This document shows, one piece after another, positions 4,371 to 53,400 of a stretch of DNA of 64,000 nt. The translations under genes were made by a program, and so were the position numbers. Below the pieces are notes generated by a model. It worked only from the letters and a program-made list of their open reading frames with translations. It made no database searches and was not told where the DNA came from. This stretch comes from Nitrospirota bacterium (lineage in GTDB: Bacteria; Nitrospirota; UBA9217). The stretch spans positions 384,001 to 448,000 of the forward strand of contig CAVVUN010000012.1 of assembly GCA_963751455.1 (NCBI GenBank). Direction: 5' to 3'. The stretch's first letter is position 1. The number at the start of each line of letters is the position of its first letter.

Positions 4371-7300
4371 CTATCCCGTGGCTACCAGCTCCCTGAACTT
4401 ATCCGCGGTCACCGGCCTGCTGAACAGAAATCCCTGAGCCTCATCGCAATCCGAATCGCGCAGAAACGCAAGCTGCTCCTCGGTCTCGACTCCTTCGGCC
4501 ACGGTTCGCATTCCCATCTTATGCGCCATCGACGTGACCGCGCTTATGATCGCCCGGTCATCCTGGTCCGTCACAATATCGCGAATAAATGATTTATCTA
4601 TCTTAAGGCGTTCAATCGGGAATTTTTTAAGATAATTAAGCGATGAATAGCCGGTGCCGAAATCATCGATCGAAATATGCACTCCCATTTCCCGCAGTTC
4701 GCGCAATTGCGAGGCGCTCCGCTCTACATCTCTCATTGCCGTGCTTTCGGTCACTTCGAGGTCGAGGCAACCCGGAGACGTTCCGGTTTCCCGGAGGATC
4801 GTGGAAATCATGGCGACCAGGTCCGGGCTCTCGAACTGGCGGGCGGAAAGGTTCACGGTAACACAAAAGGTGTCGAGGCCCGCCTTCTTCCACGCGGCTG
4901 CCTGGCTGCAGACCGTCTTCAGCACCCATTCGTCTATCGACGTTATGAACCCGGTCTCTTCCGCGAGGGGTATGAACTCCTTCGGCTCAAGCATTCCTCT
5001 GTGCGGGTGGTTCCATCTCACCAGCGCCTCGGCATACCATATTTTGTTCGATTTAATATCGATCTGGGGCTGGTACAGCACGGACAGTTCGCCGCGCTTT
5101 ATCGTTTGGCGGAGAAAGCTCTCCAGTTTCATCTGCTCGAGCGAGCGGATGTTGATCGAGGGATTATAGAACCGGAAGGTGTTTCTGCCGCTTTCCTTCG
5201 CATGGTACATGGCGATATCCGCATACCTGAGAAGGGTTTCGATCTCGTCGCTGTCGTCCGGGTAGATGCTGATGCCGACGCTGGTCGTTACATGCAGCAG
5301 GTGGCCGTCAATGTCAGATCGGCTCGTGGAGAGAATTGACGATCTTGAGCGCGATCTCGCTCACATCTTCCGAACGGGCAATATCGGAAAGGATCATGTT
5401 GAATTCGTCCCCGCCGATCCTCGCGACGGTATCGGCTTCGCGGATTGTTAGCCTGAAGCGCGACGCAGCCTGCTTCAGCAGCCGGTCCCCGGCCTCATGG
5501 CCGAGCGTATCGTTGATCTCCTTGAAGCGATCGAGATCGAGAAACAGGATTGCAAGCTTCGTCCTGTGCCTGCGTGCCTGCGCAAGTTCGACATTCAGGA
5601 TGTCTATGAACAACCGCCTGTTGGGGAGCCCGGTCAGGGCGTCGTGCTGCGCCATGTGCCGTATCTGTTCTTCCATGCGCTTGCGTTCTGTCACGTCCCG
5701 CGCGATTCCTGCCGTGCCTGTGACCTCGCCTTTATCATTATAAATCGGCGTCTTGATCGACTCGATCCACCTGCCTTCTCCGACTGCAAGGGGCTCTTCA
5801 ACGCGTTTCTGAGCCCGGCTTTTCATGACTTCACGGTCGTCAGCCCTGTACCGCTCCGCCAGCTCTTTGGGCCATACGTCCAGATCGGTTTTTCCGATCA
5901 GGTCCTCGGGTTTGTTCCCGGTTGCTCTGGCCATGGGCTCGTTCACAACAATAAAACGGCTTTCCCTGTCCTTGAGCCACACCATATCGGGAATGCTGTT
6001 TACAATCGCCTTTAACAGGCGCTCACTCGTCCGGAGCGCCTGATACAACTCGGCATTCTCCAGGGCGAGCGAAACGGAGGCAGAGAGTTTCCTCGCGAAA
6101 TCGATACGTTCCTCCTCGAACTCGATCCGCCGTGAAAGGCCGTAAAAAGCAATGGCCCCGGCAATCCTCTTTGTCGTGATCAGGGGAGACACGAGCAGGG
6201 AACGAATTCCCATTTCCTTTACAAAAGGAATATTAAGCCGTTCATCATTGGCTGCGTCATTGAAGGCGACAGTATCTCTAACCTGGGCCACATACTGCAT
6301 GGCCCTCAGTTCGTCGGACGCAAGCCTTCGCCTTGAAAATTCCTCGGGCATGTTGTAGACGCGGCGAACATGAAAAATCCCGTCTTCATACAGCCCGATC
6401 AATGTCCCGTCGACTTTCATGACCCGGGCCGCCTCTTGTACGACCCGCTGCATGATCTCGTCGAAATCGAGCGTTGAGTGGATCACGGTCCCGAGACGAT
6501 TAAGAGCGTCGCTCAATTCCTTTGACTTCCGGATCAGCTCCACGGCCTTCTGCCGCTCGGTAATTTCCATCCGAAGCTCATCATTTATTTTTGCCAGCTG
6601 TTGCGTGCGTTCCCGGACTTTCGCTTCCAATTCCGCGTATGCCTGTTTGAGGATGTTCTCCGCTTGCTTGCGTCCGGTAATGTCCACGCCGAACGCGACG
6701 TTGTATTCCCGTCCTCCGAATGACAAATAGTTCAGGGACATCTGGACCGGGACGAATGTCCCGTTCTTTTTCCGGTGCTGCGTTTCAAAGTGAAGGTTTC
6801 CTTCCTTCTTGAGCTGCGCCCAGTGATCGTCCCATTTTGAAAGCGGGTAATCGGGATCCAGGTCGTATACCGCCATGGACAGCAGCTCTTCGCGGGAATA
6901 CCCGAGCGTACGGCATGCCTGTTCGTTCACATACTGGAAGCGCGCGTCGTGTCCCACTAAATAAGCGCATACGGACGCGTGGTCCATGGAGAACTGCGTC
7001 AGTCTCAGACTCTCTTCCGCCTGCTTGCGTTCGGATATGTCCCGGACGCTTGCAAGTATCCGGTCCCTGCCTTTGAGCGGAACCCGCCGCAAGTTCACCT
7101 CGACCGGGAAGATTTTGCCTGTTTTGCTCCTGGCCAGCCACTCAAACGTCTGAGGCTCCCCTGCTGCCGCCCGGTGCAGGATTGCAAGCGCATCGGCGTT
7201 CGTATATCCGGGAGACCCGGCGCTCAAGGAACCCACATCAAGGCCCTGTATTTCATCGACTTCATATTCATAAAGGTCTTCGAATTTCCGGTTTACCTCC

Positions 7301-7770
7301 AGGATCCGGCCTGTTTTTATATCATGAACGAAAATAGCGTCATGGACGGAGTTGAAAATCATTCGAAAGCTTTCTTCTGATTCTTCGAGCTCATGCTGGA
7401 CGCGGTTCCGTTCGGTAATATCCCTCATGATTGAGGCATACCCAATGATTTCACCGGCCTGTTTCAGCAGGACCGCTGTCAATTCAATCGGTACGATTCT
7501 GCCGTCTTTTGCGAGCCGCAAAGTCTGGTACTCCGACATCTTGCCTTTCTCGTTCAGCTCGTGTATGCAGTGCTCGATCTCCCGCTGCGCGATATCCGGC
7601 GGTATTATTACTGCAACATTTTTTCCTATCAGTTCATCCTCACGGTATCCGAATATCTCCTCGGCGCCCCTGTTCCATGAACGTATGATCCAATCGGTGT
7701 CCATGATGCAGATGGCGTCGGGGATATTCTGGCAAATTTCGTACAATACATTGGCTTGAATTTTTTTCAT
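4371..7770 (-). CDS. PAS x3-GAF-PAS-GGDEF-EAL protein, one apparent frameshift near 5315
   Basis: ORF 5314-7770 (PAS, GAF, READ-GGDEF) continues in another frame (DIDGHLLHVTTSVGISIYP) into ORF 4371-5210 (EAL, DDFGTGYSS). Removing one base joins them. Confidence 0.88.
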
Positions 7771-17345: not shown

Positions 17346-19532
17346 TCATCCTTCGTCCCTCGTCTGCCACATCCCTCGGCCCACGAGTTCCCCGAACCGG
17401 TCTGCCGGCAACGGCCTGCTGAAGTAAAACCCCTGGGCCTCGTCGCAATGCAGCGCTCTCAGAAAAGCAAGCTGTTTCGCGCCTTCGACGCCTTCTGCAA
17501 CGACCTTCAATTTCATGGCATGGGCCATCAGCAAGACCGCGGTGATGATCGTACGATCACCGGCGTCGGTGGCGATATCCCTTATAAAAGACCTGTCAAT
17601 CTTCAATTTGCGGATAGGCAGCCGCTTGAGCTGATTCAGCGAAGAATACCCTGTGCCGAAATCGTCTATGGATACATTCACGCCCATTTCCGTCAGCTCG
17701 CGTATCTGCCCAATCGTGTCCTCAATATTGCCCATGGCCGTCGTTTCCGTAATCTCGACATCCAGGCACTCCGGCGGCATTCCCGTTTCTCCGAGTATCC
17801 GGCCGATCCGTCTGGCCAGATCCTTTTTTTGAAACTCCATTGCTGAAAGGTTTACCGTAACACAGACCCGGCCCAGGCCCTGGCCCATCCATGTTTTGAT
17901 CTGCCTGCCCACAGCCGACAGGACCCATTCGTCTATATCCGTCATGAAACCGAGCTCCTCGGCCGCTCTGAGGAAATGCTCGGGCTCGAGAATGCCTTGT
18001 TCCGGGTGCTGCCAACGGAGCAGCGCTTCACCGGAAACAAAACCGTTGGTCTTGACATCGACCATGGGCTGAAAATACAAGCGGAATTCCTGGCGCTCGA
18101 TCGCCCGGCGCAGGCTGTTCTCGAACTGCATGCGTTCTATCGAGCGGGTGTTGATGTCCGGGTCATAGAACCGGTACATGTTCCTGCCGTGTTCCTTGGC
18201 GTAATACATGGCGATGTCGGCATACCGGAAAAGGGTCTCTGTTTCCGCGCTGTCGTCGGGATATATGCTGATCCCGACTGAACAGGTGACGGTGAGTTCA
18301 TGGCCTGCTATCAGAAAGGGCTTTCGGAAAGACTCGACGATTTTCCCGGCTGCGTCAGCCGCATCTTCGGAATGAACGATGTCGGATAACAGCAGGTTGA
18401 ATTCATCGCCTCCTATGCGGCTCACGATATCGGACTCCCTGACCGCCCCTTTGAGACGAACGGATACCTGTCTCAACAGTTGGTCCCCTAATTCATGACC
18501 CAGGGTATCGTTAATTTCCTTGAACCGGTCGAGATCAAGAAACAAAACAGCGAGCTTTCTTTGTATGCGCCGCGCCTGCGCCGCCTCCACCTGAAACAGA
18601 TCGAGAAACAACCGCCTGTTCGGCAGATTTGTCAGGGAGTCATGGTGGGCCAGGTGCCTCAGTTCCTCTTCCATCCGTTTGCGTACGGTGATGTCAGTCA
18701 CGAAAGAGTAATAATAATCAGGGTCCCCCTTTTCGTCCCTGACCAGGTGGACTTTTAATTCTACCGGTACTTGCGTGCCGTCCTTTCTTATATATTCTTT
18801 CTGATAAACCGGGGGCGTCCCGGTCCTGCGCAGCTCTTCAAGCATCTGCTCTTCAAGCTCCCGCCACTTGGGCGGAGTCAGTTCGATCCATGTCTTTATC
18901 CGCAATTCTTCAGCCCCGTAGCCTGTCAGCTCCAGAAATGCCTGATTATAGTTCATGAGGCGGCCGTCGGGATACGCGGAGTTGAAAGGCAGGGAGGAAC
19001 TTTCTATGGCGCTCGCGAAAAATGAGGCCCTTTCCTTCGCTGCCTTAAGCTCGGCCGTGCGCTCCTCAACCTTTTTTTCCAGGCCGGCGTGATAGGCTTC
19101 AAGCTCTTTCTGCATGCGCCTGTGTTCACGCCTGACCTGAGCATCGCTCAATTCCCGCGCGATCGCGGGAACAAGCCGGGCCATATTGCCCTTCGTCACA
19201 TAATCATGCGCGCCGGCTTTCAATGCGTTCACTGCGGTTTCCTCCGTAATTGTGCCGGAGACAAGAATGAAAGGCAGGTCGGGATCGGTCCCGCGCACAA
19301 TTTTCAGCGCCGAGACCGCGTCGAAGTAAGGCATTGAGAAATCGGATATGACCAGGTCCCACTGCTGCCTTGCGAGCGCATCCCTCAATGTGTCCGCTGT
19401 CTCGACGCGCTCGGAGACGGCTTCATAGCCGCCTTTCCTGATTTCTCGAAGAACGAGCATCGTATCGTCCTCGGAATCTTCAACAACGAGGACGCGCAAG
19501 GGAATGACCGCCTTATTGTCAATGTCAGACAT
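17346..19532 (-). CDS. REC-PAS-GGDEF-EAL response regulator
   Basis: VVEDSEDD, ISDFSMP and YVTK receiver motifs, PAS, RESD-GGDEF, GEALLRW, DDFGTGYSS. Confidence 0.93.
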   Translation of the reverse strand: MSDIDNKAVIPLRVLVVEDSEDDTMLVLREIRKGGYEAVSERVETADTLRDALARQQWDLVISDFSMPYFDAVSALKIVRGTDPDLPFILVSGTITEETAVNALKAGAHDYVTKGNMARLVPAIARELSDAQVRREHRRMQKELEAYHAGLEKKVEERTAELKAAKERASFFASAIESSSLPFNSAYPDGRLMNYNQAFLELTGYGAEELRIKTWIELTPPKWRELEEQMLEELRRTGTPPVYQKEYIRKDGTQVPVELKVHLVRDEKGDPDYYYSFVTDITVRKRMEEELRHLAHHDSLTNLPNRRLFLDLFQVEAAQARRIQRKLAVLFLDLDRFKEINDTLGHELGDQLLRQVSVRLKGAVRESDIVSRIGGDEFNLLLSDIVHSEDAADAAGKIVESFRKPFLIAGHELTVTCSVGISIYPDDSAETETLFRYADIAMYYAKEHGRNMYRFYDPDINTRSIERMQFENSLRRAIERQEFRLYFQPMVDVKTNGFVSGEALLRWQHPEQGILEPEHFLRAAEELGFMTDIDEWVLSAVGRQIKTWMGQGLGRVCVTVNLSAMEFQKKDLARRIGRILGETGMPPECLDVEITETTAMGNIEDTIGQIRELTEMGVNVSIDDFGTGYSSLNQLKRLPIRKLKIDRSFIRDIATDAGDRTIITAVLLMAHAMKLKVVAEGVEGAKQLAFLRALHCDEAQGFYFSRPLPADRFGELVGRGMWQTRDEG

Positions 19533-19746: not shown

Positions 19747-19950
19747 TCGTTTCAGTTAAATTATAACTCTCATTAAGATAAGATTACCCCATTATCGTAC
19801 CCTCTCCCTGAGGAGCGGGAGAGGGGAATCAAGGGGAAGATTTACTTGAATAGATGCGTACAATGAGTAATAATAAAAACAGGATTGTTTTAGTGCGATT
19901 AAAACTTTTTATGTAATAAGTTGCAGCGGGGTTTTTCGCAGAGCGAAAAA

Positions 19951-20038: not shown

Positions 20039-23000
20039 ATGGCAGACAAAACGAAACAAAAAACAACCATGCAGGAGATGGCCGAACCGGGCGAGGGCCG
20101 GATCGCGCTCCTTGCCTCCATTGTCGACTCATCCGACGACGCCGTCTATGCCAAAACACTGGAAGGCGTTATCACGAGCTGGAACCGCGCGGCGGAATTG
20201 ATGTACGGCTATACGGCGGAAGAGATCATCGGCAAGCCCGTCTCGGTCCTGTTGTCCCCGGACCGGCCGAGGGAGATGGAAGATATTCTCCTGAAGATCC
20301 GCGAGCGGAGAACGCATAGAACACTTCGAGACCCTGCGGCGGCGCAAGGACGGCACGCTGGTCCACGTGTCCCTCACGGTTTCTCCGATCCACGACTCCG
20401 CGGGCCGGCTGATCGGCGCTTCGTCCATCGCCAGGGACATTACGGAGCGCAAGCGGATGGAGGAACAGCTCAGGGCCACTTCTCAGTATGCGCGGAGCCT
20501 GATCGAGGCGAGTCTCGACCCGCTGGTCACGATCAGCCCCGAAGGCAAGATCATGGATGTCAACGAAGCGGCGGTCAAGGTGACGGGCTTGTTCAAGGAG
20601 CAGCTCATCGGCACGGACTTCTCGGACTACTTCACCGAGCCGGAAAAGGCGCGCGAGGGATACCGGCAGGTCTTCGAGAAGGGCTTTGTAACGGACTACC
20701 CGCTCACGATCCGCCACAGGGACGGCCGTCTCACGAATGTTCTCTACAACGCCTCGGTCTACCGCGACCTGCAGGGCAACGTGCTCGGCGTTTTCGCCGC
20801 GGCCCGCGATGTGACGATGCAGCGCCAGGCCGCGCAGTATGCGCGGAGCCTGATCGAGGCGAGTGTCGATCCGCTGGTCACGATCAGCCCCGAAGGCAAG
20901 ATCACGGACGTGAACGAGGCCACGGTCAAGGTGACGGGCTTGCCCAAGGAACAGCTCATCGGCACGGACTTCTCGGACTACTTCACCGAGCCGGAGAAGG
21001 CGCGTGAGGGATACCGGCAGGTCTTCGAGAAGGGGTTTGTAACGGACTACCCGCTCACGATCCGGCACAGGGACGGCCGTCTCACGAACGTTCTCTACAA
21101 CGCCTCGGTCTACCGGGACCTGCAGGGCAACGTGCTCGGCGTTTTCGCCGCGGCCCGCGATGTGACCATGCAGCGCCAGGCCGCGCAGTATGCGCGGAGC
21201 CTGATCGAGGCGAGTCTCGACCCGCTCGTCACGATCAGCCCGGAAGGCAAGATCACGGACGTGAACGAGGCCACGATCAAGGTGACCGGCATGCCGAAAG
21301 AGCGGCTCATCGGCACGGACTTCTCCGACTACTTCACCGAGCCGGAAAAGGCCCGCCAGGGATACAAGGAGGTCTTCGCAAAGGGGTTTGTAACCGACTA
21401 CCCGCTCACGATCCGGCACAAGGACGGCGCGCTGACCGACGTTCTCTACAACGCCTCGGTCTACCGTGACGTACAGGGCAATGTGCAGGGCGTTTTCGCC
21501 GCGGCCCGCGACGTGACGGCGCAGCGGCAGGCAGCTCAGTATGCCAGGAGCCTGATCGAGGCGAGCCTCGACCCGCTGGTCACGATCAGCCCGGAGGGAA
21601 AGATTACGGACGTGAACGAGGCCACCATCAAGGTGACCGGCATGCCGATGGAGCGGCTCATCGGCACGGACTTCTCCGACTACTTTACCGAGCCGGAAAA
21701 GGCCCGGGAAGGGTATCAACAGGTCTTCGCGCAAGGGGTTCGTGACCGACTATCCGCTCACCATCAGGCACAAGGACGGGAAGCTCACGGACGTCCTTTA
21801 TAACGCATCGGTTTACCGGGATGTGTACGGCAACGTGCTCGGCGTCTTCGCCGCTGCCCGCGACGTGACGGCCCAGCGGCAGGCCGCTCAGTATGCCAGG
21901 AGCCTGATCGAGGCGAGTGTCGACCCGCTGGTTACGATCAGCCCGGAAGGCAAGATCACGGACGTGAACGAGGCGACGGCGAAGGTCACGGGTATTCCGC
22001 GCGACAAGCTCATCGGCACGGACTTCTCCGACTACTTCACCGAGCCGGATAAGGCCCGTGAGGGGTATCAGCAGGTCTTTGCCAAAGGGTTCGTGACAGA
22101 CTACCCGCTGACGATCAGGCACAGGGACGGGAAACTGGTCGACGTGCTCTATAACGCGTCCGTTTACCGGGACGTGCAGGGCAACGTGCTGGGCGTGTTC
22201 GCCGCGGCGCGGGACGTGACGGAATCCAAACGCGTCATGCGCGAGTTCGCGGAGACGAAAAACTTTCTCGACAACATCCTGCAGAGCTCGACCAAGTACT
22301 CCATTATCGGAAAAGACCTCGACTACCGCATTCTCTCCTGGAATGAAGGGGCGCGGCTGAACTACCGATATACGGAAGATGAGATCATCGGCAAATCGGC
22401 GACTATTCTTCACTCGCCTGAAGATATCGAGTCAGGGGTCGTCGATAGGATGCTGAAGACGGCTTATGATAAGGGACTGGCGGAAGGCGAGTTTCAGCGC
22501 GTCCGGAAGGACGGCTCCCGTTTTGTGGCAAGCGTCGTGGTCACGCGCCGGAACGACGCCTCAGGCAATCCCATCGGCTACCTGCTCATGAGCACCGACA
22601 TCACGGAAAAGAAGCAGTCGGAGGAAAAGCTGCGTTATGCGTCCCAGTACGCCCGCAGCCTGATCGAGGCTAGTGTCGATCCGCTGGTAACGATCAGCCC
22701 GGAAGGAAAGATCACGGACGTGAATGAGGCGACGATCAAGGTGACCGGCATGCCGAGGGAGCAGCTCATCGGCGCGGATTTCTCGGACTACTTCACCGAG
22801 CCTGAGAAGGCCCGCGAGGGATACGAGCAGGTCTTCTCGAAGGGTTTTGTGACCGACTATCCCCTTACGATCAGGCACCGGGACGGGCGGCTCACGAATG
22901 TTCTCTACAACGCCTCGGTCTACCGGGACGTGCGGGGAAACGTGCTGGGCGTGTTCGCTGCCGCGCGCGACGTGACGGCGCAGAGGGAAGCGGAGGCAAA

Positions 23001-23175
23001 GGTCGTCGAGCAGCGCGCGAGAGAAGAGCAGCGGGCGCGCGAGCTGGAAAGGCTGGCCGAGCTGGAGCGGTTCCAGAGGCTGACCGTGGGACGAGAACTG
23101 AAGATGGTGGAGCTGAAGAAGGAGATCGAGGAACTCAAACGGGAGAATGATGCGCTGAAGAAAAAAGCGGCGTAG
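20039..23175 (+). CDS. Cytoplasmic 8-PAS protein with no enzymatic output, ending in a GRELKMVELK coiled coil (two apparent frameshifts, ~20303 and ~21732)
   Basis: AAAGGA RBS then MADKTKQK. PAS1, five tandem near-identical PAS, one distinct PAS, a sixth copy of the repeat, then ELERFQRLTVGRELKMVELKKEIEELK and stop. Confidence 0.85.
20487..22980 (+). repeat. 351-bp (117 aa) intragenic tandem repeat, 5 adjacent copies + 1 separated copy
   Basis: YARSLIEAS codons start at 20487, 20838, 21189, 21540, 21892 (352 bp spacing equals the extra base) and 22648. Confidence 0.95.
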
Positions 23176-23222
23176 AGACAACGTGACCGTGAGGCGGCTA
23201 TCAAACTGCTCACCAGGAAAAC

Positions 23223-24376
23223 ATGAAAACAGAACTTACAGAAAGGCTTTCAGCCGAACGCCGGTCAACCGGACCGGAAGAATATACGAAGGCCATGCTC
23301 AACATCCTCGAGGACTTCTCGGTCGAAAAAACGCGGATGGAAGAGACGCAGCGGGCCATTTTCAATATCCTGAACGATTTCACCGAGGAAAAGGAGCGGC
23401 TGGAGGAAACGCACCGGGCTGTGCTTAATATCCTTGACGACTTCGCAGATGAAAAGACCCGGCTCGAGGATGCGCAGCGGGCCGTGCTGAATATTCTGCA
23501 GGATTCCTCGGAGGAAAAGTCCCGGCTCGAAGAGGTCCGGAAAGCCATGCTGAACCTTCTGGAGGATTTTGACGTGGAACGGACCCGCACCGAAGCGGCA
23601 AACACGGAACTCCGGGACGCGCTGGCTTCGGCGCGAAGCGCAAAAGAAGCCGCCGACGCCGCCAATACGCGAACTGCAGGCATTCAGCTATTCCATTTCT
23701 CATGATCTCCGCGCCCCGTTGCGGGCCATGGACGGCTTCAGCCAGGCGCTGCTCGAGGATTATTACGATGTCCTGGATGAAGGCGGGAAGGATTATTTGC
23801 GCAGGGTGCGGACCGCGAGTCAGAGAATGGCGCAGCTCATAGATGCCCTGCTGAAACTCTCGCGCCTGACCAGGGGTGAATTGAATATTGTACCGGTCGA
23901 TCTTTCGACCATGGCCCGCGGCATACTATCCGAGCTGCAGAGGTCTTATCCGGACAGGCAGGTTGCTTTCCGGGTGGCCGAAGGCATTACTGCAAAAGCG
24001 GACGCAAATCTCATCAAGGTCGTCCTTGAAAATCTGCTCGGGAACGCCTGGAAGTTCACGGCCAAAATAAAGGACGCTGTTGATCGAATTCGGGACCGTG
24101 GAACTGGAGGGCGCCACAGTCCTGTTCATCCGGGACAACGGGGTCGGGTTCGATATGAAATATGCGGACAAGCTCTTCGGCACGTTTCAGCGCCTTCACT
24201 CGGAAAGCGAGTTTCCCGGCACGGGAATCGGGCTGTCGATTATTCATCGCATCATTACCCGGCACGGAGGGAGTGTGTGCGCGCATGCAATCCCCGGCAA
24301 GGGCGCGACATTCTTTTTCAGCATGGAGAGCCCGGTGCTGAAGGAAGGCTGCGTGAAGGTGCGAACAGCGGCGTGA
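23223..24376 (+). CDS. Soluble histidine kinase with five N-terminal 21-aa helical repeats (two apparent frameshifts, ~23667 and ~24082)
   Basis: Fragments join as repeats - [19 protein letters not shown] (H-box) - [11 protein letters not shown] (N-box) - [19 protein letters not shown]. Confidence 0.87.
23292..23606 (+). repeat. 63-bp (21 aa) repeat x5, consensus A(M/V)LNILxDFxxEKxRLEExxR
   Basis: Directly visible in the 23223-23705 translation. Confidence 0.9.
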
Positions 24377-24385
24377 AATAGAAAA

Positions 24386-24497
24386 CGCAGAGAGCGTGGC
24401 GCATAGAGCATAGCGTAAAGATTTGCCATGCTCCACTTGCACCCAGCCGCCAACGAGTGCGGAGCGCGAGTGCAGTGTGTGCCCTATGCGCTATGCG
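24386..24497. repeat. Heptamer palindrome with embedded GCACCCAGC...CGAGTGCAG-GTGTGC hairpin (24439-24482)
   Basis: gcatagagcatagcg ... gccatgctcc ... ccctatgcgctatgcg between the kinase and the response regulator. Confidence 0.7.
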
Positions 24498-24508
24498 AGG
24501 TTTTAATC

Positions 24509-24952
24509 ATGATACCTGAAAAAATAATTCTGCTTGTAGAAGACAATCCTGACGACATAGAGCTTACTCTCCGGGCGTTTCGGAAGACAAATATGGGAAA
24601 CCGGATCGTAGTGGCGAAGGACGGGGTCGAAGCGCTTGATTACCTGTTCAGAAGGGGGCAGTGGGAAGGCAGAGGGACCGAGACGGACCCTATACTAACG
24701 CTGCTCGATCTGAAGCTTCCCAGAATAGACGGGCTGGAGGTGCTGCGCCAGGTGCGTTCAGACCCGCGAACAAAGCTTCTGCCCGTCATCGTCATGACGT
24801 CCTCGGTAGAGGAACTGGACGTTATTCACAGCTATGATCTCGGCGCAAACAGCTATATTCACAAGCCGGTCAATATGCAGCAGTTCGTCGAAGCGATCAG
24901 GGAGCTCGGCCTGTACTGGCTGGTCCTGAACGTCCCGCCGATGGCGGCGTGA
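24509..24952 (+). CDS. Single-domain response regulator (Rcp1-like)
   Basis: MIPEKIILLVEDNPDD, LLDLKLPRIDG, MTSS, GANSYIHKPV, YWLVLN. The longer ORF start lies in repeat DNA. Confidence 0.92.
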   Translation: MIPEKIILLVEDNPDDIELTLRAFRKTNMGNRIVVAKDGVEALDYLFRRGQWEGRGTETDPILTLLDLKLPRIDGLEVLRQVRSDPRTKLLPVIVMTSSVEELDVIHSYDLGANSYIHKPVNMQQFVEAIRELGLYWLVLNVPPMAA

Positions 24953-24992: not shown

Positions 24993-25118
24993 TGCGTCCC
25001 TCGTCCATCGTTTCTCATCCTCGTCCTTATCCTTTATTCGTTGCGTCCCTCGCCCATCGTCCTCTCGTGCCTCTCCTTCCCTTTACGCTATGCGCCATGC
25101 CCTATGCGCTATGCGCCA
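24993..25118. repeat. Heptamer repeats (cgtccct/cgtccat and gctatgc/gccatgc types) at a convergent gene junction
   Basis: Tandem 7-mers. The stop codon of the 25102-27174 gene lies inside them. Confidence 0.7.
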
Positions 25119-27174
25119 TCATTTCCCTGAACCGGTCGGCCGGCACCGGCTTGCTGAACAGAAATCCCTGGGCCTCGTCGCAGTTCAGCCCGCGCAGAAA
25201 CGTCAGCTGCCCGTCCTGCTCCACTCCCTCGGCAACCACTTTCAGCTTCATGGAATGGGCCATAAGCAGGACCGCGGTGATGATGGCGCGATCGTCTGAA
25301 TCGGTTGCAATGTCCTGGATAAACGACTTATCGATCTTCAGTTTCCCGATCGGCAGCCGCTTCAAATAATTCAAAGAAGAGTAGCCTGTGCCGAAATCGT
25401 CGATCGAGACGCGGACTCCCATTTCCGCCAGCTCATTGAGACGCGCAATCGTGTTTTCGATGTTTTCCATGGCAACGCTCTCGGTTATCTCGATTTCGAG
25501 GCATCCCGGCGCAATTCCTGTTTCCTCGAGGACTCGCGCGATCCTTGTTATCAGGTCCCGGTCCTGAAATCTCCTGGCGGAAAGGTTTACCGTAATACAG
25601 ACGTGCGGCATGCCCTGCTCGATCCACGACTTGATCTGGATGCCTACGTTCTGCAGGACCCACTCATCGATGTCCGGCATGAAGCCGATGTCTTCAGCTG
25701 AACCGAAAAACTGTCGCGGCAGCAGAAGACCCCTCTGGGGATGCTGCCAGCGCAGGAGCGCTTCCGCGGAAACCAGCTTTCCTGTTTTGACGTCCACGAG
25801 AGGCTGGAAGTAGAGCCGGAATTCATTATTATCGATCGCCTGCCGCAGACTATTTTCGAATTGTATGCGCTCGATAGACCGGGTATTGATGACCGGGTTA
25901 TAGAATTGATAATTGTTGCGGCCCCTGTCCTTGGCATGGTACATGGCGATGTCCGCATACCGGAGCAGCGTGTCCGCTTCTTTGCCGTCATGCGGATAGA
26001 TGCTGATTCCGATGCTGCCGGACACGTTCAGCTCGTGGCCGTTGATCAGGAACGGTTTCCGGATTTCGGACATTATCTTCTGCGCAACTTCGGCGGCATA
26101 TTCGGCGCGTGTTATGTCCGGGATAATCAGGTTGAACTCGTCTCCCCCGATCCGGGCCACCGTATCCGAAACCCTGATAACGGACTTCAGTCGTGCCGCT
26201 GTCTCGTTCAGCAGCTCATCCCCGGCTTCATGTCCCAAGGTGTCGTTGATCTCCTTGAACCGGTCGAGATCCAGAAAAAATACTGCCAGTCTTCTCCCGT
26301 GCCGGCGCGCCTGGGCGAGCTCGACGCTGATGATTTCCCTGAAAAGACGCCTGTTCGGCAAGCCGGTAAGTTCATCATGCTGGGCCAGGTGTTTGACCTC
26401 TTCTTCCAGGCGTTTCCGTTCGGTAATGTCATGAAAGAAGGTTGCGACATACCCCCTCTCGGGACAATAGGCATATACTTCAAACCATCTGCCCGACAGT
26501 CTGCTGTACTGTTCGAAATGACGCGGCTCGCAGCTCTCGGAAAGAAGCCCGCAAACATCGGCCCAGGACGGCTCCATGTCGGAGCTCACTTCCCCCGCCG
26601 TCTTTCCCCTCGCGTTTTGGATGGAAATGCCGGTCAGCCGTTCCCAGGCGGTGTTTACATCGAGGTAACGAAGATCGTACGCGTTTCCCCCGGAATCGAG
26701 GACCATCTCACAGCGGGCAAACGCTTCGGTCATTGAATCGAACAGACCGCGGTATTTCTCCTCGTTCTCCCGTAAAGCTTCGGTCGCGCGTTTCCGTTCG
26801 ATGGCATACCGGATTGAGCGGACAAGACTGTCCCTGTCCATCCGTCCTTTCGTGAGATAATCCTGCACCTCCATCTGCAGCGCCTTTACAGCCAGCTCCT
26901 CGTCATTCATGCCGGTAAGAACGATGATCGGCACACCGGGAAATTGCGAGTGCACATTCTGAACCGTTTCTATCCCCTGGCTGTCCGGGAGTCCGAGGTC
27001 CAGGAGCACGATATCGAAGCGCTGCTGCCGCAGGAAGGCAAGCCCGTCCGACAGCCGCTTCGCATGAAAAAATGAGAACCGCTGCTCTGGAACCTCGCCC
27101 AGCATTTCGCTGATCAGCACCGCATCTTCGATGCTGTCTTCAATCGCAAGTACGTTAATATTTGCAGTGTTCAT
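25102..27174 (-). CDS. REC-PAS-GGDEF-EAL response regulator
   Basis: IEDS, LLDLGLPDS, LTG, YLTK, PAS, RVSD-GGDEF, AEALLRW, DDFGTGYSS. Confidence 0.93.
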   Translation of the reverse strand: MNTANINVLAIEDSIEDAVLISEMLGEVPEQRFSFFHAKRLSDGLAFLRQQRFDIVLLDLGLPDSQGIETVQNVHSQFPGVPIIVLTGMNDEELAVKALQMEVQDYLTKGRMDRDSLVRSIRYAIERKRATEALRENEEKYRGLFDSMTEAFARCEMVLDSGGNAYDLRYLDVNTAWERLTGISIQNARGKTAGEVSSDMEPSWADVCGLLSESCEPRHFEQYSRLSGRWFEVYAYCPERGYVATFFHDITERKRLEEEVKHLAQHDELTGLPNRRLFREIISVELAQARRHGRRLAVFFLDLDRFKEINDTLGHEAGDELLNETAARLKSVIRVSDTVARIGGDEFNLIIPDITRAEYAAEVAQKIMSEIRKPFLINGHELNVSGSIGISIYPHDGKEADTLLRYADIAMYHAKDRGRNNYQFYNPVINTRSIERIQFENSLRQAIDNNEFRLYFQPLVDVKTGKLVSAEALLRWQHPQRGLLLPRQFFGSAEDIGFMPDIDEWVLQNVGIQIKSWIEQGMPHVCITVNLSARRFQDRDLITRIARVLEETGIAPGCLEIEITESVAMENIENTIARLNELAEMGVRVSIDDFGTGYSSLNYLKRLPIGKLKIDKSFIQDIATDSDDRAIITAVLLMAHSMKLKVVAEGVEQDGQLTFLRGLNCDEAQGFLFSKPVPADRFREMMAHSA

Positions 27175-44409: not shown

Positions 44410-47400
44410 TCACCAACTCCCCAGCCCCACTGCTTTCCTCAATATCACCACCACGTCGCCGATATCGATCTTGCCGTCAGGAGTCGGCGTATTGTTCACA
44501 ATCGGCGCAACGTCTCCGCGTGACTGTTCACTTGCGGATGCCGTGTCGATCCCCGCGGCTATCCTGAGCGCTTTGAGCGCGTCAGCCACATCCACGTCAC
44601 CGTCTGCGTCGAGATCCCCGAGTTTAATATAGATGATGTTTCTGGTAACGCTGCTCGTGTTTCCTGCTTCGTCCGTGGCCGTTACGTTAATCGTATATGC
44701 ACCTTCTGCAGGCAAAACGATTGTCTGGCTGAAAGTTCCTGCTGTGACTGTCGGTGTATATGTTGCTGTTCCTATGCTGACCAGGACCGCCGAGGTAGTC
44801 AGAGTATCCGAAACCGTACCCGTTATCGTCACTGTCGGCGCAGTCACGATTGTATCCTGCGCCGGAATGGTCACCGCAAGGCTGGGAGCAGCCGGGTCGT
44901 AGATGACTGTGCGCTTGCCGGATGACGTGTTTCCTGCCGGGTCGGTTGCCGTAATATCGATGGTGTTCATGCCTGGTGCGAGATTCACGTCCGCGCTGAA
45001 GCCGTTCGCTGTCATGGCTGCGGTGATAGTCGTGGTGCCGTCACATATCAGCACGCTCTGCACCGCCTCATCGACCGTGCCGGTGACCGAGGACACGAGC
45101 TGGTTCGTGAAGCTGTTGTCAGCAGGAGAGGTGATCGTAAGGCCCGGCGCTGATTGATCGAGCGTGATAACGCGAGAATCGGTTGCGGTGTTCCCCGCAA
45201 GGTCCGTGGCCATTGTGGTGATGGTGTTCGAGCCAGGATTGAGTGTTACGAAAAGGCTGAAGCTGTTATCGGGCTGAACCGTGACGCTCTGGCCGCTCAC
45301 CACAAGACCCTGGATGCCGCCGCTGTCAATGGCCGTGCCCGAGATATTCAGAGTCTGGCTTTTCGTGACGCTCGCGTCTGCAAGAGTGGAGAGTGTGAGA
45401 ACCGGCGCGGTTAGATCTATGATCCAGCTCGCTGTTGTAGCCGCTTGTTCGGGCTGCCAGTTGCCGGCAGCGTCCTTGCCGATTACGGATACGCTGTGGC
45501 TGCCCTCCGCTAACCCGATGGAACTAAAGGCGATTGCCGTCGAAGTCTCGGCAGAGTAGTTTCCATTATCGAATGCGTACCGGTATGACACGACATTGGT
45601 CCCGTTGACCGTAAGCACTACAGTCGTTTGATTTGTCACTGCCTGAGGTACGCCGGAAAGGGTCGCTGTCGCTGCAACGGTGTCAAGGACGATGACCGCG
45701 GTCGCGTTTGTCTGGTTTCCCGCAGTGTCGATTGCAATGGCTGTGATGCTGTTGCTCCCTTCGGTCATGTTTGTAATGTCAGCCTGCCAGGTCGTTGCTG
45801 TGGGATAGGACACAATCCCGACAGCCGCCGTGGGACAGGTCACGGAGATTGTCGCCCCTTGTTCCATAGTCCCACTCATGGTCTGGCTGTTTTCGTTTGT
45901 GGGCGAAGCGACGGTGTTCACCGTGACTGTGGGAGCGGTCGAATCGAAAATGATGTTCCTCGTTGCTGTCATGGAGTTCCCTGCCTGATCTGTGGCCGTG
46001 ACCGTGATCGTATTTGTCCCTGGCGTCATATTCGTAATGTCAACCTGCCATGTGGTCGCCGTGGGATTGCTCACAAAGCCGACGGAAGCCGTGGAGCAGG
46101 TAATAAGCATGCTGACAGCGGCCGTGTCGCTGATTGTTCCGCTCACCGTGAAGCTCGCTTGGCTGGTTCTCGTATCCTGGTTCGGACTTGTGATGGCAAG
46201 CGCCGGGCTTACGTTATCATACGTTACCGTCCGCTTCACGCTTGTGGTATTGCCGGCAAGGTCCGTTACCGTGATATCGAGCGTATTGATTCCGTCGATC
46301 AGCGTCGCCGTATAGGTGAAGCTTGTACCGGTCATGATTGCGTAGGCCGGACTGCCGGTGTTGACTGCGATGCTGACTGTCGTGTTCTCTTCAACGGTAC
46401 CCGTTACCGCGGACAGCACTTCATTGGTTATGCTGCTGTCAGCAGGTCCGGTGACAAAGAGAGCCGGAGCTGTCTCATCGAGCGAAATAGTCCTCGTATC
46501 CGTGGTCGTGTTGCCTGCAGCGTCCGTTGCGATGGCTTCGATAATATTTGGTCCGGCCTGAAGAGTAATCGAATGGCTGAAGCTTCCACCTGCTCCCAGG
46601 GTTACTACCTCGGCCAGTGTCTGGTGGCGTACAACCAGGGACTGGACAGCGATATTATCCGTGACCGTACCCGTTAAATTCAGAACAGGATTGTTAGTGT
46701 AGCTGTTACGTGCCAGCGTCGAGACAGTAAGCGAAGGTATCGTCCCATCAATTATATAAACCTCAGTACTTGCCACACCGGCATTGCCTGCCATATCCAG
46801 AGCGAAAAACTTCAGTGTTGTGTCAGCTGCTATGGCGATCGGGGCCGTGTACAGGGTGGAACTGATTGTCGGGATATCCCCGTTCGCGGTGTAGTAGATG
46901 GCGCTGTCTGTTGCTGAAAGAGTGACATTCTTTGTTGTGTTGAACAATCCTCCTGAAGGAGTCGCGGTGCCGGTCGGCGCTATGGTGTCCATTATCCACG
47001 CGTACTGCGCCGGAGATTCGTCCGTATTGCCGGCCTGGTCAATTGCACGCACAAAGAAGAGATGGCTGCCTTCGGACAGGGTTGTGTAGGTCATGGGGCT
47101 TATGCAGGACGAGTAACTCCCGGTGTCCAGCCTGCACTCAAAACTCCCTGCCTCTGTTAAGGTAAACGTGAAGGTAGCTGCGGCCGAGTTGATGATACTC
47201 GCGGGCCCCGTGCTGATGGCAGTGTCCGGCCTTGTAATATCAAGAACGATTGATGCGGAGACCGCGGAGGAGAGATTCCCGGTATTGTCGGTTGCAGTGA
47301 CCGAAACCGAATTCGCTCCCGGAGTGAGCGTTGTAAGCATGGCCTGCCATGTCGTTGTTGACGGATAACTTACCGGTCCGACTGTTGCGGTGGAACAAAC

Positions 47401-50400
47401 AATGTCAACCGTGCTTCCCGGCTCCATTGTGCCCGTGATCGCCTGGGTCTCCTGGTTCGTGGGCGACGATATGGGATTAATGGTGATCGCTGACGGTGTT
47501 ATGTCATAAATAATGTTGCGCTGCACAATCGTGGTATTGTCCGCGCTGTCCGTTGCGGTCACAATGACGGCATAGGTCTTCTCTGTGCTGAAGGTAACCG
47601 TCTGCTCGAACGCTCCCGCAGTGACAGTGGGGGTGGATACTGTTCCGTCAATGTTGACCGTTACCACGATGCCGGTCATGTCCGTGACAGTTCCCTTGAG
47701 CAGATAGCTGTTCTGGTTTGCCCTGATATCCTGGTTCGGGTCCGTTATTGCCAGGGACGGACCTTGATTGTCAAACGTTACCGTTCGCTTTGCTGTTGAG
47801 GTATTTCCGGCAAGGTCCGTAGCAAGGATGTCGATGGTGTTTTCGCCGGAAGCGAGGTTAATTGTGGCGGTAAAGCTGCTTCCGATCACTTCCGCATTGA
47901 TCGTTGTGGTCCCGATTGAGACAAGCACGCTCTGCACGCTCTCGTCCACGGTGCCGGTGATAGTTGAAATAATCTCGTTGGTAATGCTGTTGTCCGCGGG
48001 AGCAGTGACCGTGAGACTCGGGGCTGCCTCATCGAGAGTGATTGTTCTCGTGTCCGTTGTCATATTGCCCGCAGCGTCAGCTGCAATAGTTTCAATAGTG
48101 TTTGCGCCGGACTGAAGCGTTATTGAATGGCTGAAGCTTCCGCCCGCTCCCGTGGTTACTACCTCCGTCAATGTCTGGCGGCTTACAAGCAAGGCCTCGA
48201 AAGCGATATCATCCGTGGCCGTACCCGTCAGGTTCAAAACCGGGTTGTTGGTGTAGCTGCCGTCCGCCAGCGTCGAGAGCATGAGCGACGGTACAACCTC
48301 GTCAAAGGTGACTATGCGGGTATCCGTTATCGAATTACCCTGAAGGTCCGTTGCGATCGTCGTAATGGTGTTCGATCCGGTCGCAAGGGTAATCACATGG
48401 ACGAAGGTGTTATCGGTGTTTACCGTAATTGTGGTCCCGCTTATGACCAGGCTCTGAAGACCGCCATTGTCCGAGACCCGTCCTTCGATGTTCGGGGTCT
48501 GATTATTCGTGATGCTGTCGCTGGCGGGAGTGGAAACCATCAGAGCGGGCGCGGTACTATCGATGAAGCTGGCCGCAACAGTGCAGTCTTCGGTAATCAG
48601 GCCGGTTGTGTATATGTCCGGACCGGTCAAGGTCCCGCTGCAACCTGAAACCAGCGCAACGCTGTAGCCGGGAGCAGCGATCACCGTGAACGAGGTCGCG
48701 GTGTTATAAGGCACGACCTGGTCCGTGCTGATACTCCCGTTCGGTCCGGCTGATGTCGAGACAGTAAAGGTGTCGATCGCGAATGCCGCTATGATCGTGT
48801 GGTCCGTTGTTACGTTGGTGAAGGTATAGCTGTTCACCGGACCGATTGGGACATCGTCCACAAGCACATCCGCTATGTGATAGTTTGCCGAAGCCGTGAT
48901 CGTATAAACGTGGTCCGAGCCATAGTTCGCGGCAAGATTCCCTGCGGGGCTTATGCCGCCGCCCGATCCCGTGGAAGCGCTGATAATGCGGGTGTCGCTC
49001 GCGAACGTCGCACTTATCGTATTAGTCGTTGTTACGTTGGTGAAGATAAAGCTGTTCACCGGACCGACCGAGAAGCCGTTTACCAGCACATCGGCAACAT
49101 GGTAGTTCGCCGAAGGCGTGATCGTAAACGCCTGGCTGCCTTCATAGTTGACCGGCACATCTCCTGCCGGGCTTATGGCTCCATTCGTTCCTGTTGAAGC
49201 AGTGATCGTGCGAGTGTCGATCGAGAATGTCGCGCTTATCGTATGGTCCGCTGTTATATCGGTGAATGTATGGCCGGCCGCCAGTCCCACCGAGACGCTG
49301 TCGACAAGAATATCCGCTACATGGTAGTTTTCGGAAGGCGTGATGGTAAACGTCTGACTCCCTCCTTTATTGACCACAACGGTCGCACCCGGGCTGATGC
49401 TGCCGCCCGGTCCGGCGGACGGCGCCAGCGCGTAGTTGTCCTCGGCGAAGACGGCACTGATCGAATGGTCCGCCTCTACCGGGTTAAAGGTGTAACTGGT
49501 CACCGGCCCCACCGGGACCCCGTCTATCAGCACCGTGCTGATGAAGTACCCGTCGCCCGGGGCGATGGTGAAGGTCCTGTTCCCTCCGTCATCGATTGAA
49601 ACAGCATCGGGAGGATCAATGCTTCCGCCGGTAGAAGCCGACGGAAGCAATGACCACGTCTGCAGACTTGCCGAGCAGGAAGCTGTGCTTCCGTCATACT
49701 GGCCGCTGCAGGACCAGGACCACGGGTGGCCGGAACCGCTCACCGGAGACGCTTCCCCCATGACACAGAGGTCATCAACCGTTTCAGCCGCCGTTAATGT
49801 CCGGCCGTGGTCCGCTCCGCAGACGCCGTTTATTGGATCGTGGGCGAAGCGTACTATAATCGTATGGTTGGCTGAAACCGTTTCAAAGATGTAATGGTAC
49901 AGGCCCTTTTGACACGCCGTCGATCAGCACATCCGCCACGTGGTATCCCGGATCAGGCGAGAAGCAAACGGCGGAGAGAGCGCTCGGCCATCCACCACGA
50001 CAATGCCTGCCGGGGAGAGCGCTTCCTCCGCCGTCGACGCTCGCATTCAAGCACGATAAGTCCACTGGATCGATTTGCTCACGGATTCAATCATTCCCGC
50101 AGTGTTTTCCCCGGGCCTTGAGATAGAAACTGTTCCCGACGAGGAACTGATAATGCCCGTCGGTCCGCAGCCAGCTCCCATGCTCCGCCCGGGTGCGGCA
50201 GTTTAAACCCGGGGCCAAGGGGTGACCAGGCAGCGCCAGCATAAGAGAACCACACTTCGGAGATTTCCGGAGCTGTGCCGCTTCTCATCCAGGTGATCTT
50301 TTGCCGTTAACGGTGACCGACAGGCGCTGCTCCGCCGGAGAGGTGGCGTGCACGCGCGCGATCCGGCCCCTGGACATCCCGCCGATAGATGTGAAAGCGC

Positions 50401-53400
50401 CTCCCACAACCGCCCTGCCGTCGGACTGGATGGCGATTGATCGGACCTCGACGGGATCACTGGCCGGGATCATAGGTCGCATCAAGAGAACCGTCCGGAT
50501 GCAGCCGGGCTATGCCGTTTCTCGTCGTCCCGCTTATGGAGGTAAATAATCCGCCCGCTATGATTTTCCCGTCCGCCTGCAGGGCCAGGGAATTAACGAT
50601 CCCACCAGCGGCGTTCGGGTTGAAACCAGTATCCAGATATCCATAGGGATAAAGCCGCGCGATGCGGTTTATTGTGTAAGTCTGGCCGCTGCACACAATA
50701 GAGGTGAAGTCCCCTCCGATGAGGATCATGCCGTCAGACTGCTTCGCAATCGTTCGGACCTCGCCTTTCACCCTTGCAAAGAAATTGGGGGCAACAGACC
50801 CGTGAAGAATCAAGACGGATAAGCCCGCCCAACGAACTGGTCGGGGAAGTGTAGAAGTTTGTTCCACCGAGAAGAATTCCGTCACTCCCAGGCGGAGACT
50901 GGGTGACTATCGAATTTATCGGTCCGGTCAGCCTCGGCTGATACGGTGGATTAATGCCATCGTTTATCCCTTCCCCAAACTGCAGCAGGGAGGAGAGATT
51001 GAAGCCCTCATCAATCCTGCCGTCATCAAAGATACGGGCAATACCCGGCCTCTGTATCCCGTTGATGGTAGAAAAATCCCCTCCAACGAGGATATTGCCG
51101 CTCATTTCAAAGGCGCCTGCCCGTACAGAAGCAATCATCGGGGGAGTGATAAAAATGTTAGGAGCCGAGAAGCCGGAAACATGGCTGCCGTCCTCATCCA
51201 ATCGGTCGATGCCTTGCCTTGCCACAAGAATTTTGCCGTCGCTCCGGACAACAGTGGCGTAAACAGGACCAGGCACGACCGGGGTTGAAAGCCGTCGTCC
51301 ACGCTCCCATTCTCATGGAAACGGGCCATGCCGTTTCTATCACGCCGGCGAGGAGGTAAACTCTCCGCCGACAATGATTTTGCCGTCCGCCTGGATGGCC
51401 GTGGAATTCACCGCCTGGTCCGCATTCGGATTGAATGCCGTCTCCATGCGTCCGTCCGGGTAGAGGCGGGCGATATATTCCTTTGACGCGCCGCCGAAGG
51501 CAGTGAAGTCTCCGCCTACGAGGACTTTCCGTCCGGCTGGACAACGAGCGCGATTCAGGACCATTCGCATTATAGTTCGGGGGCCGTCCGGTTCGAAAGT
51601 CGTATCGAAACTAGGCCGTTCTGATGCAAACAACGAGGCGATTTGTCAATATTTCTGTTCGCTGATGACCATGGAGGTAAACTCACCGGCTACGATTATT
51701 TTACCGTCCGACTGAAGGGAAACCGCCTAAACTGCTGGTATTTGACGTCGAAGGAGCATCAAGAACTGCCGGGGAGAATGTGATTCCTGACTCCCGTCCT
51801 GATTCAGCCGGACGAATGCAGCGCGCGTCTTGCCGACAAGGATCTTGCCGTCAGGCTGAAGGGTTATGGAGTAGACGCATCGGCGCTGTCGAGTGAAATC
51901 AGTATTGAAGCCGCTGTCTACGGTTCCATCCTGGTTCAGTCGGGCGAGGCGATATCTTGTCGGCCGTGACCGAAGAAAACAGCCCCCCTACCAAAATCTT
52001 GCCGTCAGGCTGGACGCGACTGCCCGGACCTCCCCATCTGCGATCGGCTCGAAACCGGTATCCAGCGAGTCATCCGTGTTCAGCCTGGCGATAAAGCGCC
52101 TCTCTTGATCTCGAACCATGTTGAACCCCCCCCGACAACGATCTTGCCGTCCGGCTGGAGGGCCAGGGTCTCACCGTCAAAAACGGGAGCAAAGGCCGTA
52201 TCCGGCGGGCCGTCCGGATTGAGCCGCATGAGGCCAACAGCTTTTAATAAGTATCTTGCCATCCGGCTGGACCGCCAGGAGGACGAGGCCCCATGGGGTC
52301 TTCGAACATAAATGTGGTATCGAGGGTCCCGTTTTGATGAAGCCGGGCCAGGCCGTTTCGACGCAGAGGCTGCCCGCTTAGGGCCCGAATGTCGCCCCGC
52401 CGACAATAATCTTCCCGTCGGGCTGGACGACGACGCCGGTCACAGCACGATCGGCCTCGGGATAAAAGCCCGTATCGATAAGCGATGCGGCCGCTTTGGG
52501 GGTAAAGGTGGCGGCGATGGTATGGCTGGCGTTGACATTATAGAAGTTGTAACGGGTCACCGGCCCCACGGAAAAACCGTCCACCCGAACATCCGCGACT
52601 TGATAACCAGGCTCCGGAATAATGCCGAAACACCATGTCTCGCCGTGGTTCACCACCATGGGATTATCTTCCTCCGGGAAAATGGACCCGCCCGCGCCTG
52701 CCGAGCGGGTCAGGGTATAGGTGTTGACGGCAAAACTCGCAATGAACGTGTGGCTGTCTTCTATGTTAGAGAACGTATGGCTGTTCACGACGCCCACGGA
52801 AGCATCATCGACCTTCACATCGGTAATGTGGTAACCTTCAGAGGGTATGATGGTAAACGTCTTATTCGACCCGTGGTTCACCGATACCTCTCCTGCCGGG
52901 CTGATCGCCCCTCCTGCCCGCTCGCTCCCTGTTGATGCGCTTATTACATACGTCTGGATCGCGGCTGAGCAGTTGGCGCTGTTGCCGCCGAAACTGCCGT
53001 TGCAGGTCCAGGTCCAGGCGTTGCTCAAAGTGGAAGCGGACCCCGCGGCGCAAAGCTCCGTGGGAGGCGACGTCAAGCCGGTCCTGCCGTGGTCCGTCCC
53101 GCACGCGCCGGTGACGAGACTGCCGAAGGCGGCCGTGATCGTGTGGTTGGTGACAACGTTGCTGAAGGTGTAACTGGTCGCCGTCCCTGCAGACACTGCC
53201 GAAGTCACGCCGTCAACATGCACTTCCGCGCCATATCCGGCATCAGGTGTGATGGTAAACGTCTGGTCCTTTCCCCTTTCGACGACGACCGTCCCGGCCG
53301 GACTGATCACACCGTTCGCGCCCGCGGAAGCATTCAGAGTATAGGGAACCAGGAAAATATTCCGCACGGATTCCAGCACGGAGTCGCCGGCATTGTTGAT

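What the first reader, a model, noticed from the sequence alone, without database searches (positions are those of the whole stretch)
20039..24952. Candidate split two-component system: output-less PAS array plus sensor-less kinase with five 21-aa repeats
Seen: an 8-PAS protein ends in ELERFQRLTVGRELKMVELKKEIEELK with no catalytic domain. 47 bp downstream, with its own RBS and ATG, a kinase has no TM, PAS or GAF. Its only input region is five 3-heptad repeats A(M/V)LNILxDFxxEKxRLEE. An Rcp1-like receiver follows, and a REC-PAS-GGDEF-EAL gene is divergent. The PAS protein tail aligns with the start of a DHp helix (ELERF..... G versus ELQAF..... H) but lacks the His. Inference: the GRELKM helix docks on the LNILED repeats, so one kinase has multiple docking sites and can integrate detachable sensors in trans. 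I know of no description of this pairing.
Basis: partly seen in the sequence, partly recalled or inferred. Interest (0 to 1): 0.82.

Follow-up and report, generated by a model that had tools for sequence, protein, structure and literature searches.

The report
Detached sensor tail, multi-site kinase
An eight-PAS sensor with no enzyme part ends in a conserved helix, and the sensor-less kinase encoded next to it begins with five copies of a second conserved helix; the two motifs travel together across bacteria and archaea and likely bind each other, which would be an undescribed way of wiring separate sensors to signalling enzymes.

Summary
Observation confirmed, with one omission: both genes carry two frame breaks each in this assembly (error or decay, unresolved). 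The split between them is real: 11 of 11 other multi-repeat cassettes are split at the same place. The tail (motif A) is a large unnamed family (16,017 clusters), nearly always C-terminal on proteins without a kinase. The repeat (motif B) occurs as 4-10 exact 21-residue copies in sensor-less kinases, and as single copies before HisKA, HisKA_2 and probably HD-GYP and GGDEF outputs. In 745 genomes, 28 of 30 with B also had A; a broader profile found B in 64 of 75 A genomes against 6 of 80 A-less controls. B sits at a fixed heptad phase to the phospho-His (28 of 28). Natural A-B fusions exist. Two first-reader points weaken: the pseudo-DHp likeness got no profile support, and 7 of 10 multi-repeat genomes have only one A gene, so the repeats more likely bind several copies of one sensor than different sensors. 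Not found in nine literature searches; this scan has noted the tail/partner-helix pairing before on other DNA.

The parts
20039..23175 (+). Output-less PAS array gene (8 PAS, about 1,040 aa if read through), frame breaks near 20320-20340 and 21733
20482..22222 (+). Five tandem 351-bp PAS units; a sixth copy of the same unit starts near 22652
23047..23154 (+). Motif A, conserved C-terminal helix (L-x2-F-x5-G-R-E-L-K-M-x-E-L-K-K); R and E invariant in 109 of 109 aligned tails
23176..23222 (+). 47-nt gap with AGGA at 23215-23218 before the kinase ATG
23223..24376 (+). Sensor-less HisKA-HATPase kinase gene, frame breaks near 23670 and 24080; H-box His codon at about 23701
23292..23606 (+). Five 21-residue motif-B repeats (A-x-L-N-I-L-[ED]-D-F), starting at 23292, 23355, 23418, 23481, 23544
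24509..24952 (+). Single-domain receiver with the Asp of LLDLKLP present (the label Rcp1-like is recalled, not from a call)
17346..19532 (-). Divergent REC-PAS-GGDEF-EAL gene, candidate downstream target (inferred from position only)
25102..27174 (-). Convergent REC-PAS-GGDEF-EAL gene, second candidate target (inferred from position only)

Best explanation
The PAS array and the kinase are separate proteins, and the conserved tail helix of the array likely docks on the conserved repeats of the kinase, so that the detached sensor would control kinase activity. Shown: two separate genes, two conserved motifs, tight co-occurrence, fixed heptad phase of motif B to the phospho-His. Predicted: the repeats and DHp helix 1 form one unbroken helix of about 160 residues, so the kinase dimer would be a long parallel coiled coil. 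Inferred: with M/V, I and F in the dimer core, the conserved A, L, N, L and D of each repeat face outward and line grooves that take the tail's R-E-x-x-M-[IV]-x-L face. A change in the PAS chain would shift the bound tail and retune the stalk leading into the DHp, as an in-line linker does in a fused kinase. Phosphate would pass to the small receiver and probably on to the flanking c-di-GMP enzymes. The five repeats most likely bind several copies of the same array (avidity or gain). The same pair is a portable part, used in single copy before other outputs. The signal sensed is unknown.
For: Neighbourhood: 7 of 7 GTDB loci fetched with the repeats have an A-tailed gene directly upstream. In 79 metagenome loci fetched with a tail, a B pattern lay downstream on the same strand in 26, upstream in 0, on the other strand in 0; with at least 5 kb downstream 19 of 28 by pattern, 22 of 28 by the broader profile, against 0 of 22 upstream. 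Genomes, seeds removed, B at E<=1e-3: A+B+ 28, A+B- 47, A-B+ 2, A-B- 668 of 745. The broader profile turned 36 of the 47 positive (28 of 39 not in its training set) against 6 of 80 A-less controls. Own genome: B on 3 ORFs only, all in the two A-bearing clusters, among 35 DHp-like and 43 GGDEF ORFs. Unlinked co-occurrence in G038, G047, G055, G068, G074, G080, G089, G748. A followed by B in one chain: L018, P0248, P0251, P0254. Last B to His distance 31, 38, 45 or 52 in 28 of 28. One helix, residues 18-179, in the AlphaFold2 monomer of P0009; 2 prolines in 15,603 repeat residues. Tail positions 18 and 21 covary with B's Asn above all 60 shuffles (z 8.7 and 8.2 against a maximum of 7.7).
Against: No direct evidence of contact. 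The covariation rests on 63 related pairs, is confounded by ancestry, and other pairs score as high. B-like motifs occur in genomes where no A was found (G194, G543, G022, G373, G023), and 11 of 75 A genomes stayed B-negative. 6 of 28 long metagenome loci lacked B downstream; a profile trained only on tandem repeats found B in just 8 of 79 loci. Several metagenome loci are near-duplicates and kin are not independent, so the Fisher values overstate. Co-occurrence fits any functional link, not only A-B binding. This copy has 4 frame breaks in 4.3 kb against about 0.1 per kb in other signalling genes and may be decaying.
Confidence: 0.68

Rival explanations
1. The motifs are independent coiled-coil parts. 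The tail is a self-dimerising zipper that caps the sensor, the repeats are a spacer or self-assembly stalk, and the two proteins talk through other surfaces.
For: Both are helical with heptad patterns. B occurs in some A-less genomes. Operon linkage alone gives co-occurrence.
Against: A spacer does not need invariant N and D. A and B co-occur unlinked and with unrelated sensors and outputs, where the motifs are the only shared parts. In two A-less genomes B has lost its Asn (L167, L170).
Confidence: 0.15
2. The tail is a His-less pseudo-DHp helix that pairs with the kinase's own DHp and inhibits or activates it, as pseudokinase partners do; the repeats have another role.
For: ELERF resembles ELEAF before the H-box; GRELK can be set by eye against SHDLR.
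Against: hhalign aligns 5 residues, probability 1.8%; no HisKA match in 109 tails. A partners include HisKA_2 kinases and, by motif, HD-GYP and GGDEF proteins with no DHp, all carrying B.
Confidence: 0.09
3. The repeats are covalent modification (methylation) sites like those of chemoreceptors or the RsbK S-helix, and the tail recruits the modifying enzyme.
For: Repeats are Glu-rich (net charge -12). One A tail in this genome ends a CheB-CheR-PAS protein (L106).
Against: The recalled chemoreceptor methylation consensus is met strictly in 1 of 120 repeat regions and loosely in 11. No ERT signature in the repeat consensus. No CheR-like neighbour was apparent in the multi-repeat cassettes examined (motif tags only).
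Confidence: 0.04
4. One fused PAS kinase split by a sequencing error.
For: The assembly has four frame breaks in this cassette.
Against: 11 of 11 other multi-repeat cassettes are split at the same place, kinase in another frame. The tail lies within 30 residues of the C-terminus in 120 of 120 and 148 of 150 homologs. Homologous kinases start at the same Met.
Confidence: 0.01

Closest known systems
Signaling helix (S-helix), Anantharaman et al. 2006, PMC1592074 (abstract and section 7 read)
   Same: Short conserved coiled-coil element with polar conserved residues, between diverse sensors and diverse outputs, proposed as a switch.
   Different: The S-helix is one in-chain element with an ERT signature. 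Here there are two unlike motifs, usually on two proteins, and one is multiplied in tandem.
Stand-alone or accessory sensors acting on a kinase (DivL-CckA, RcsF/IgaA-RcsC in passages of review PMC12471899; H-NOX-kinase, NreA-NreB, UhpC-UhpB recalled)
   Same: Sensor and kinase are separate polypeptides, often adjacent genes.
   Different: Those contacts are system-specific. Here the same two motifs recur with unrelated sensors (PAS, REC, CheB-CheR, ETR1_N-like) and unrelated outputs. The passages read describe nothing like it.
Chemoreceptor-CheW-CheA arrays (recalled)
   Same: Many output-less sensors share a conserved C-terminal helical part that feeds one kinase.
   Different: No MCP signal domain or CheW family matched; class I kinases and other enzymes instead of CheA; acceptor sites lie on the enzyme's own stalk.
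Cph1/Rcp1-type kinase and single-domain receiver pairs (label recalled)
   Same: H-box SHDLRAPL, N-box [10 protein letters not shown], small receiver next door.
   Different: No photosensory module; input region replaced by motif-B repeats.
'Split histidine kinases' (PMC3591291, search listing only; content recalled)
   Same: Name only.
   Different: That term refers to splitting ATP binding from phosphotransfer; here the catalytic core is whole and the sensor is detached.

Membership tests
Class I histidine kinase (HisKA + HATPase_c) | DHp with phospho-His and CA domain with N, G1, F, G2 boxes | tested here: met
   Pfam E 8.7e-15 and 5.4e-14; boxes conserved in 80 homologs
Class I histidine kinase (HisKA + HATPase_c) | Intact reading frame in this genome | tested here: inconclusive
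   Two frame breaks; no own reads available
S-helix | Central ERT signature at c-d-e | tested here: not met
   Absent from the consensus of A and B cores against PMC1592074 section 7
S-helix | Lies between two domains of one chain | tested here: not met
   A terminal in 268 of 270 homologs; B repeats N-terminal in the multi-repeat kinases, though single B is often internal
DHp (HisKA) helix 1 / pseudo-DHp | Profile similarity of the tail to DHp | tested here: not met
   hhalign 1.8%; no HisKA hit in 109 tails; short helices limit power
DHp (HisKA) helix 1 / pseudo-DHp | Second helix completing the hairpin | tested here: not met
   Median 10-12 residues remain after the motif
Chemoreceptor methylation helix | Small-small-x2-[EQ][EQ]-x2-small-small consensus (recalled) | tested here: not met
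   1 of 120 strict
Accessory sensor-kinase pair | Separate genes, conserved linkage | tested here: met
Accessory sensor-kinase pair | Physical binding and control of kinase activity | not testable with these tools
Any curated family for motif A or B | Match above cut-off in Pfam, NCBIfam or PDB sequences | tested here: not met
   the Pfam copy dates from 2025, and PF26724 listed on some homologs could not be looked up

The most novel reading that the evidence does not exclude
Motifs A and B are a universal, output-independent docking pair of prokaryotic signalling: any sensor ending in A can drive any kinase, phosphodiesterase or cyclase carrying B. Tandem B arrays count bound sensors, and proteins with B inside and A at the end chain sensors into relays. 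It would be a mix-and-match wiring layer in over 16,000 protein clusters and a ready tool for synthetic two-component design.
Probability: 0.4. Interest if true: 0.88.

Novelty: new variant of a known kind. Interest (0 to 1): 0.74.

Why it matters
Thousands of 'PAS-only' and 'sensor-less kinase' annotations would turn out to be halves of one system, and the motifs would predict which sensor feeds which enzyme. A non-covalent sensor-to-DHp link at a fixed helical phase would allow direct tests of how coiled-coil stalks switch kinases, and the natural 1-to-10 repeat series is a ready-made valency experiment. This cassette is fully soluble, so it is the easiest version to reconstitute.

Tried and rejected
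Single-sequence AlphaFold2 of the natural fusion L018: two long helices, pTM 0.43, no contact information; its fold search found nothing at E<=0.001. Pseudo-DHp idea for A and a DHp-helix-2 idea for B: no profile support. PAS number against repeat number: rho 0.71 in 9 cassettes, 0.05 after adding 3 pairs joined by equal contig length (3 contig-edge loci left out, some repeat counts low); rejected. Methylation sites: rejected. Reads: one weak DNA holder, no cover of the junction, no RNA holder listed. ESM Atlas for the repeats: nothing at 0.9 or more; for the tail only unnamed clusters. Plasmid collection: 2 weak tail matches, not followed. Relatives search with the single repeat region found 2 of 61 genomes. 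Promoter scan: one weak sigma-70-like site at 19846-19874, near chance. Literature searches gave no paper on these motifs; most subscription papers are outside the library and no supplements were read.
Full report
OBSERVATION. The cassette is as described. The PAS gene (20039-23175) holds eight PAS units, five as a 351-bp tandem array, and ends 27 residues after GRELKM. A 47-nt gap with AGGA leads to ATG 23223. The kinase starts with five exact 21-residue repeats, then HisKA and HATPase_c. A single-domain receiver follows, and REC-PAS-GGDEF-EAL genes flank the cassette on the other strand. P0009 matches the kinase end to end across three frames. Other genes in the assembly also break, but 4 breaks in 4.3 kb is well above the roughly 0.1 per kb seen in 86 signalling-domain loci (my hand Poisson estimate is about 0.001, and the method undercounts). 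No reads of this organism were found. Assembly error and real decay of this copy both remain open. The family-level conclusions rest on intact homologs.

THE SPLIT IS REAL. In 11 of 11 other multi-repeat cassettes the PAS gene stops and the kinase starts in another frame. The tail lies within 30 residues of the C-terminus in 120 of 120 close homologs and 148 of the best 150 profile hits, none with an H-box pattern.

TWO UNNAMED FAMILIES. Motif A: 16,017 clusters at 50% identity; R and E invariant in 109 aligned tails. It ends PAS arrays, a CheB-CheR-PAS protein and, in the Atlas structure search, REC and ETR1_N clusters. Motif B: 1,847 homologs of the repeat region. The best 120 have 4-10 repeats at multiples of 21, and 117 of 120 list no sensor family. 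N and D of several repeats are invariant in 80 of 80 whole-protein rows. Single copies precede HisKA, HisKA_2 and, judged by recalled motifs only, HD-GYP and GGDEF domains. Neither motif matches Pfam, NCBIfam or PDB sequences above cut-off.

CO-OCCURRENCE. From B to A: 7 of 7 GTDB loci. From A to B: in 79 metagenome loci a B pattern was downstream in 26, upstream in 0 over similar total lengths (309 and 260 kb); with 5 kb or more downstream, 19 of 28 by pattern and 22 of 28 by profile A4, which was partly trained on these loci; a profile trained on tandem repeats alone found 8 of 79. Some loci are near-duplicates. By genome in four phylum samples, seeds removed: 28 A+B+, 47 A+B-, 2 A-B+, 668 A-B-. 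Profile A4 then found B in 36 of those 47 (28 of 39 outside its training) and in 6 of 80 A-less controls, two or three of them covering the core. In the own phylum B lay 0.1-2.5 kb downstream of an A in 11 of 12 B genomes. In this genome three A genes and three B genes occupy two clusters, and no other of 35 DHp-like or 43 GGDEF ORFs carries B. Eight genomes have A and B on different contigs, which fits action in trans but may partly reflect fragmentation. A then B in one chain occurs in L018, P0248, P0251 and P0254; B inside with A at the end in P0343, P0365, P0390 and L162. Kin are not independent, so the statistics overstate.

MECHANISM. Shown: the last B lies 31, 38, 45 or 52 residues before the His in 28 of 28 loci without an intervening domain. 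Predicted: one helix from the first repeat through DHp helix 1 (pLDDT 73-93 by block from residue 31). Inferred: taking the usual DHp core register, M/V, I and F face the dimer core, and A, L, N, L, D face outward, the pattern of a binding groove rather than a spacer. The tail has its invariant R at a core position and a second hydrophobic stripe, so it looks incomplete as a homodimer. Tail positions 18 and 21 covary with B's Asn (Asn to Tyr with Leu to Phe or loss of Ile), above shuffles but confounded by ancestry. I therefore favour A-on-B docking that retunes the kinase stalk (0.68).

WHAT THE REPEATS DO. Of ten genomes with a multi-repeat kinase searched for A, seven had one A gene, while G056 and G748 with six A genes gave one B match each. 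Multiplying sites therefore looks like avidity or gain for one dedicated PAS array; cross-talk among the three tails of this genome stays possible. A link between PAS number and repeat number did not hold.

COMPARISON. It works like an accessory sensor on a kinase and resembles the S-helix in spirit (PMC1592074, abstract and section 7 read), but it fails the S-helix, DHp and methylation-helix tests. Passages of a 2025 review on accessory proteins (PMC12471899) describe no such pair. PMC4574943 was seen as a listing and one unhelpful passage; the other papers only as listings. Searches found no description; closed-access papers and supplements were not seen. Earlier notes of this scan report the tail and partner helix on other DNA; they are not independent support, and my reading was set before I saw them. 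I found no note on the tandem form.

VERDICT. Real, widespread and apparently unpublished two-motif signalling module, here in a soluble multi-site form. Docking is likely but untested. Interest 0.74; new variant of a known kind, with a 0.4 chance of being a general wiring layer.

Noticed in passing
G000:C15:1683457-1707000 (L106, L003): Second cluster in this genome: CheB-CheR-PAS protein with an A tail, a REC-PAS protein with an A tail, then a MASE3-PAS-HisKA_2 kinase and a REC-PAS-GAF kinase, each with one B motif.
   Followed up: partly
window 922-29512, minus strand: Dense c-di-GMP cluster with at least seven GGDEF-EAL genes; the cassette sits on the opposite strand in its middle, and the PAS gene is GC-richer (0.615 against 0.54-0.55), hinting at acquisition.
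   Followed up: partly
window 4371-7770: PAS-GAF-GGDEF and EAL ORFs are one gene broken by a frame change inside GGDEF.
   Followed up: partly
window 19987, 24484, 25088, 27401, 29569, 30075: Short intergenic heptamer arrays at gene boundaries; 16 arrays of three or more units in the genome, 4 in this window.
   Followed up: no
L107:736-3868 (G112); also G100: A-tailed sensor, then a V4R protein, then a short HAMP protein ending in motif B with no output domain.
   Followed up: no
L162, P0343, P0365, P0390: Proteins with B inside and A at the end, in L162 between an A gene and a B kinase: candidate chain adaptors.
   Followed up: partly
P0241-P0280, L163: About 20 proteins carry two A motifs, one internal and one terminal.
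   Followed up: no
L091, L092, L095, L096, L098: A-tailed genes directly upstream of probable HD-GYP proteins with variant B motifs; near secA-like genes in L091 and L095 (labels recalled).
   Followed up: partly
L002, L007, L008: The same repeat array is grafted on HisKA_2 kinases, including an archaeal Methanoperedens record, showing output swapping and cross-domain spread.
   Followed up: partly
window 44410-59214, minus strand: Large Ig-repeat protein and two DUF5122 beta-propeller proteins, probably surface proteins.
   Followed up: no
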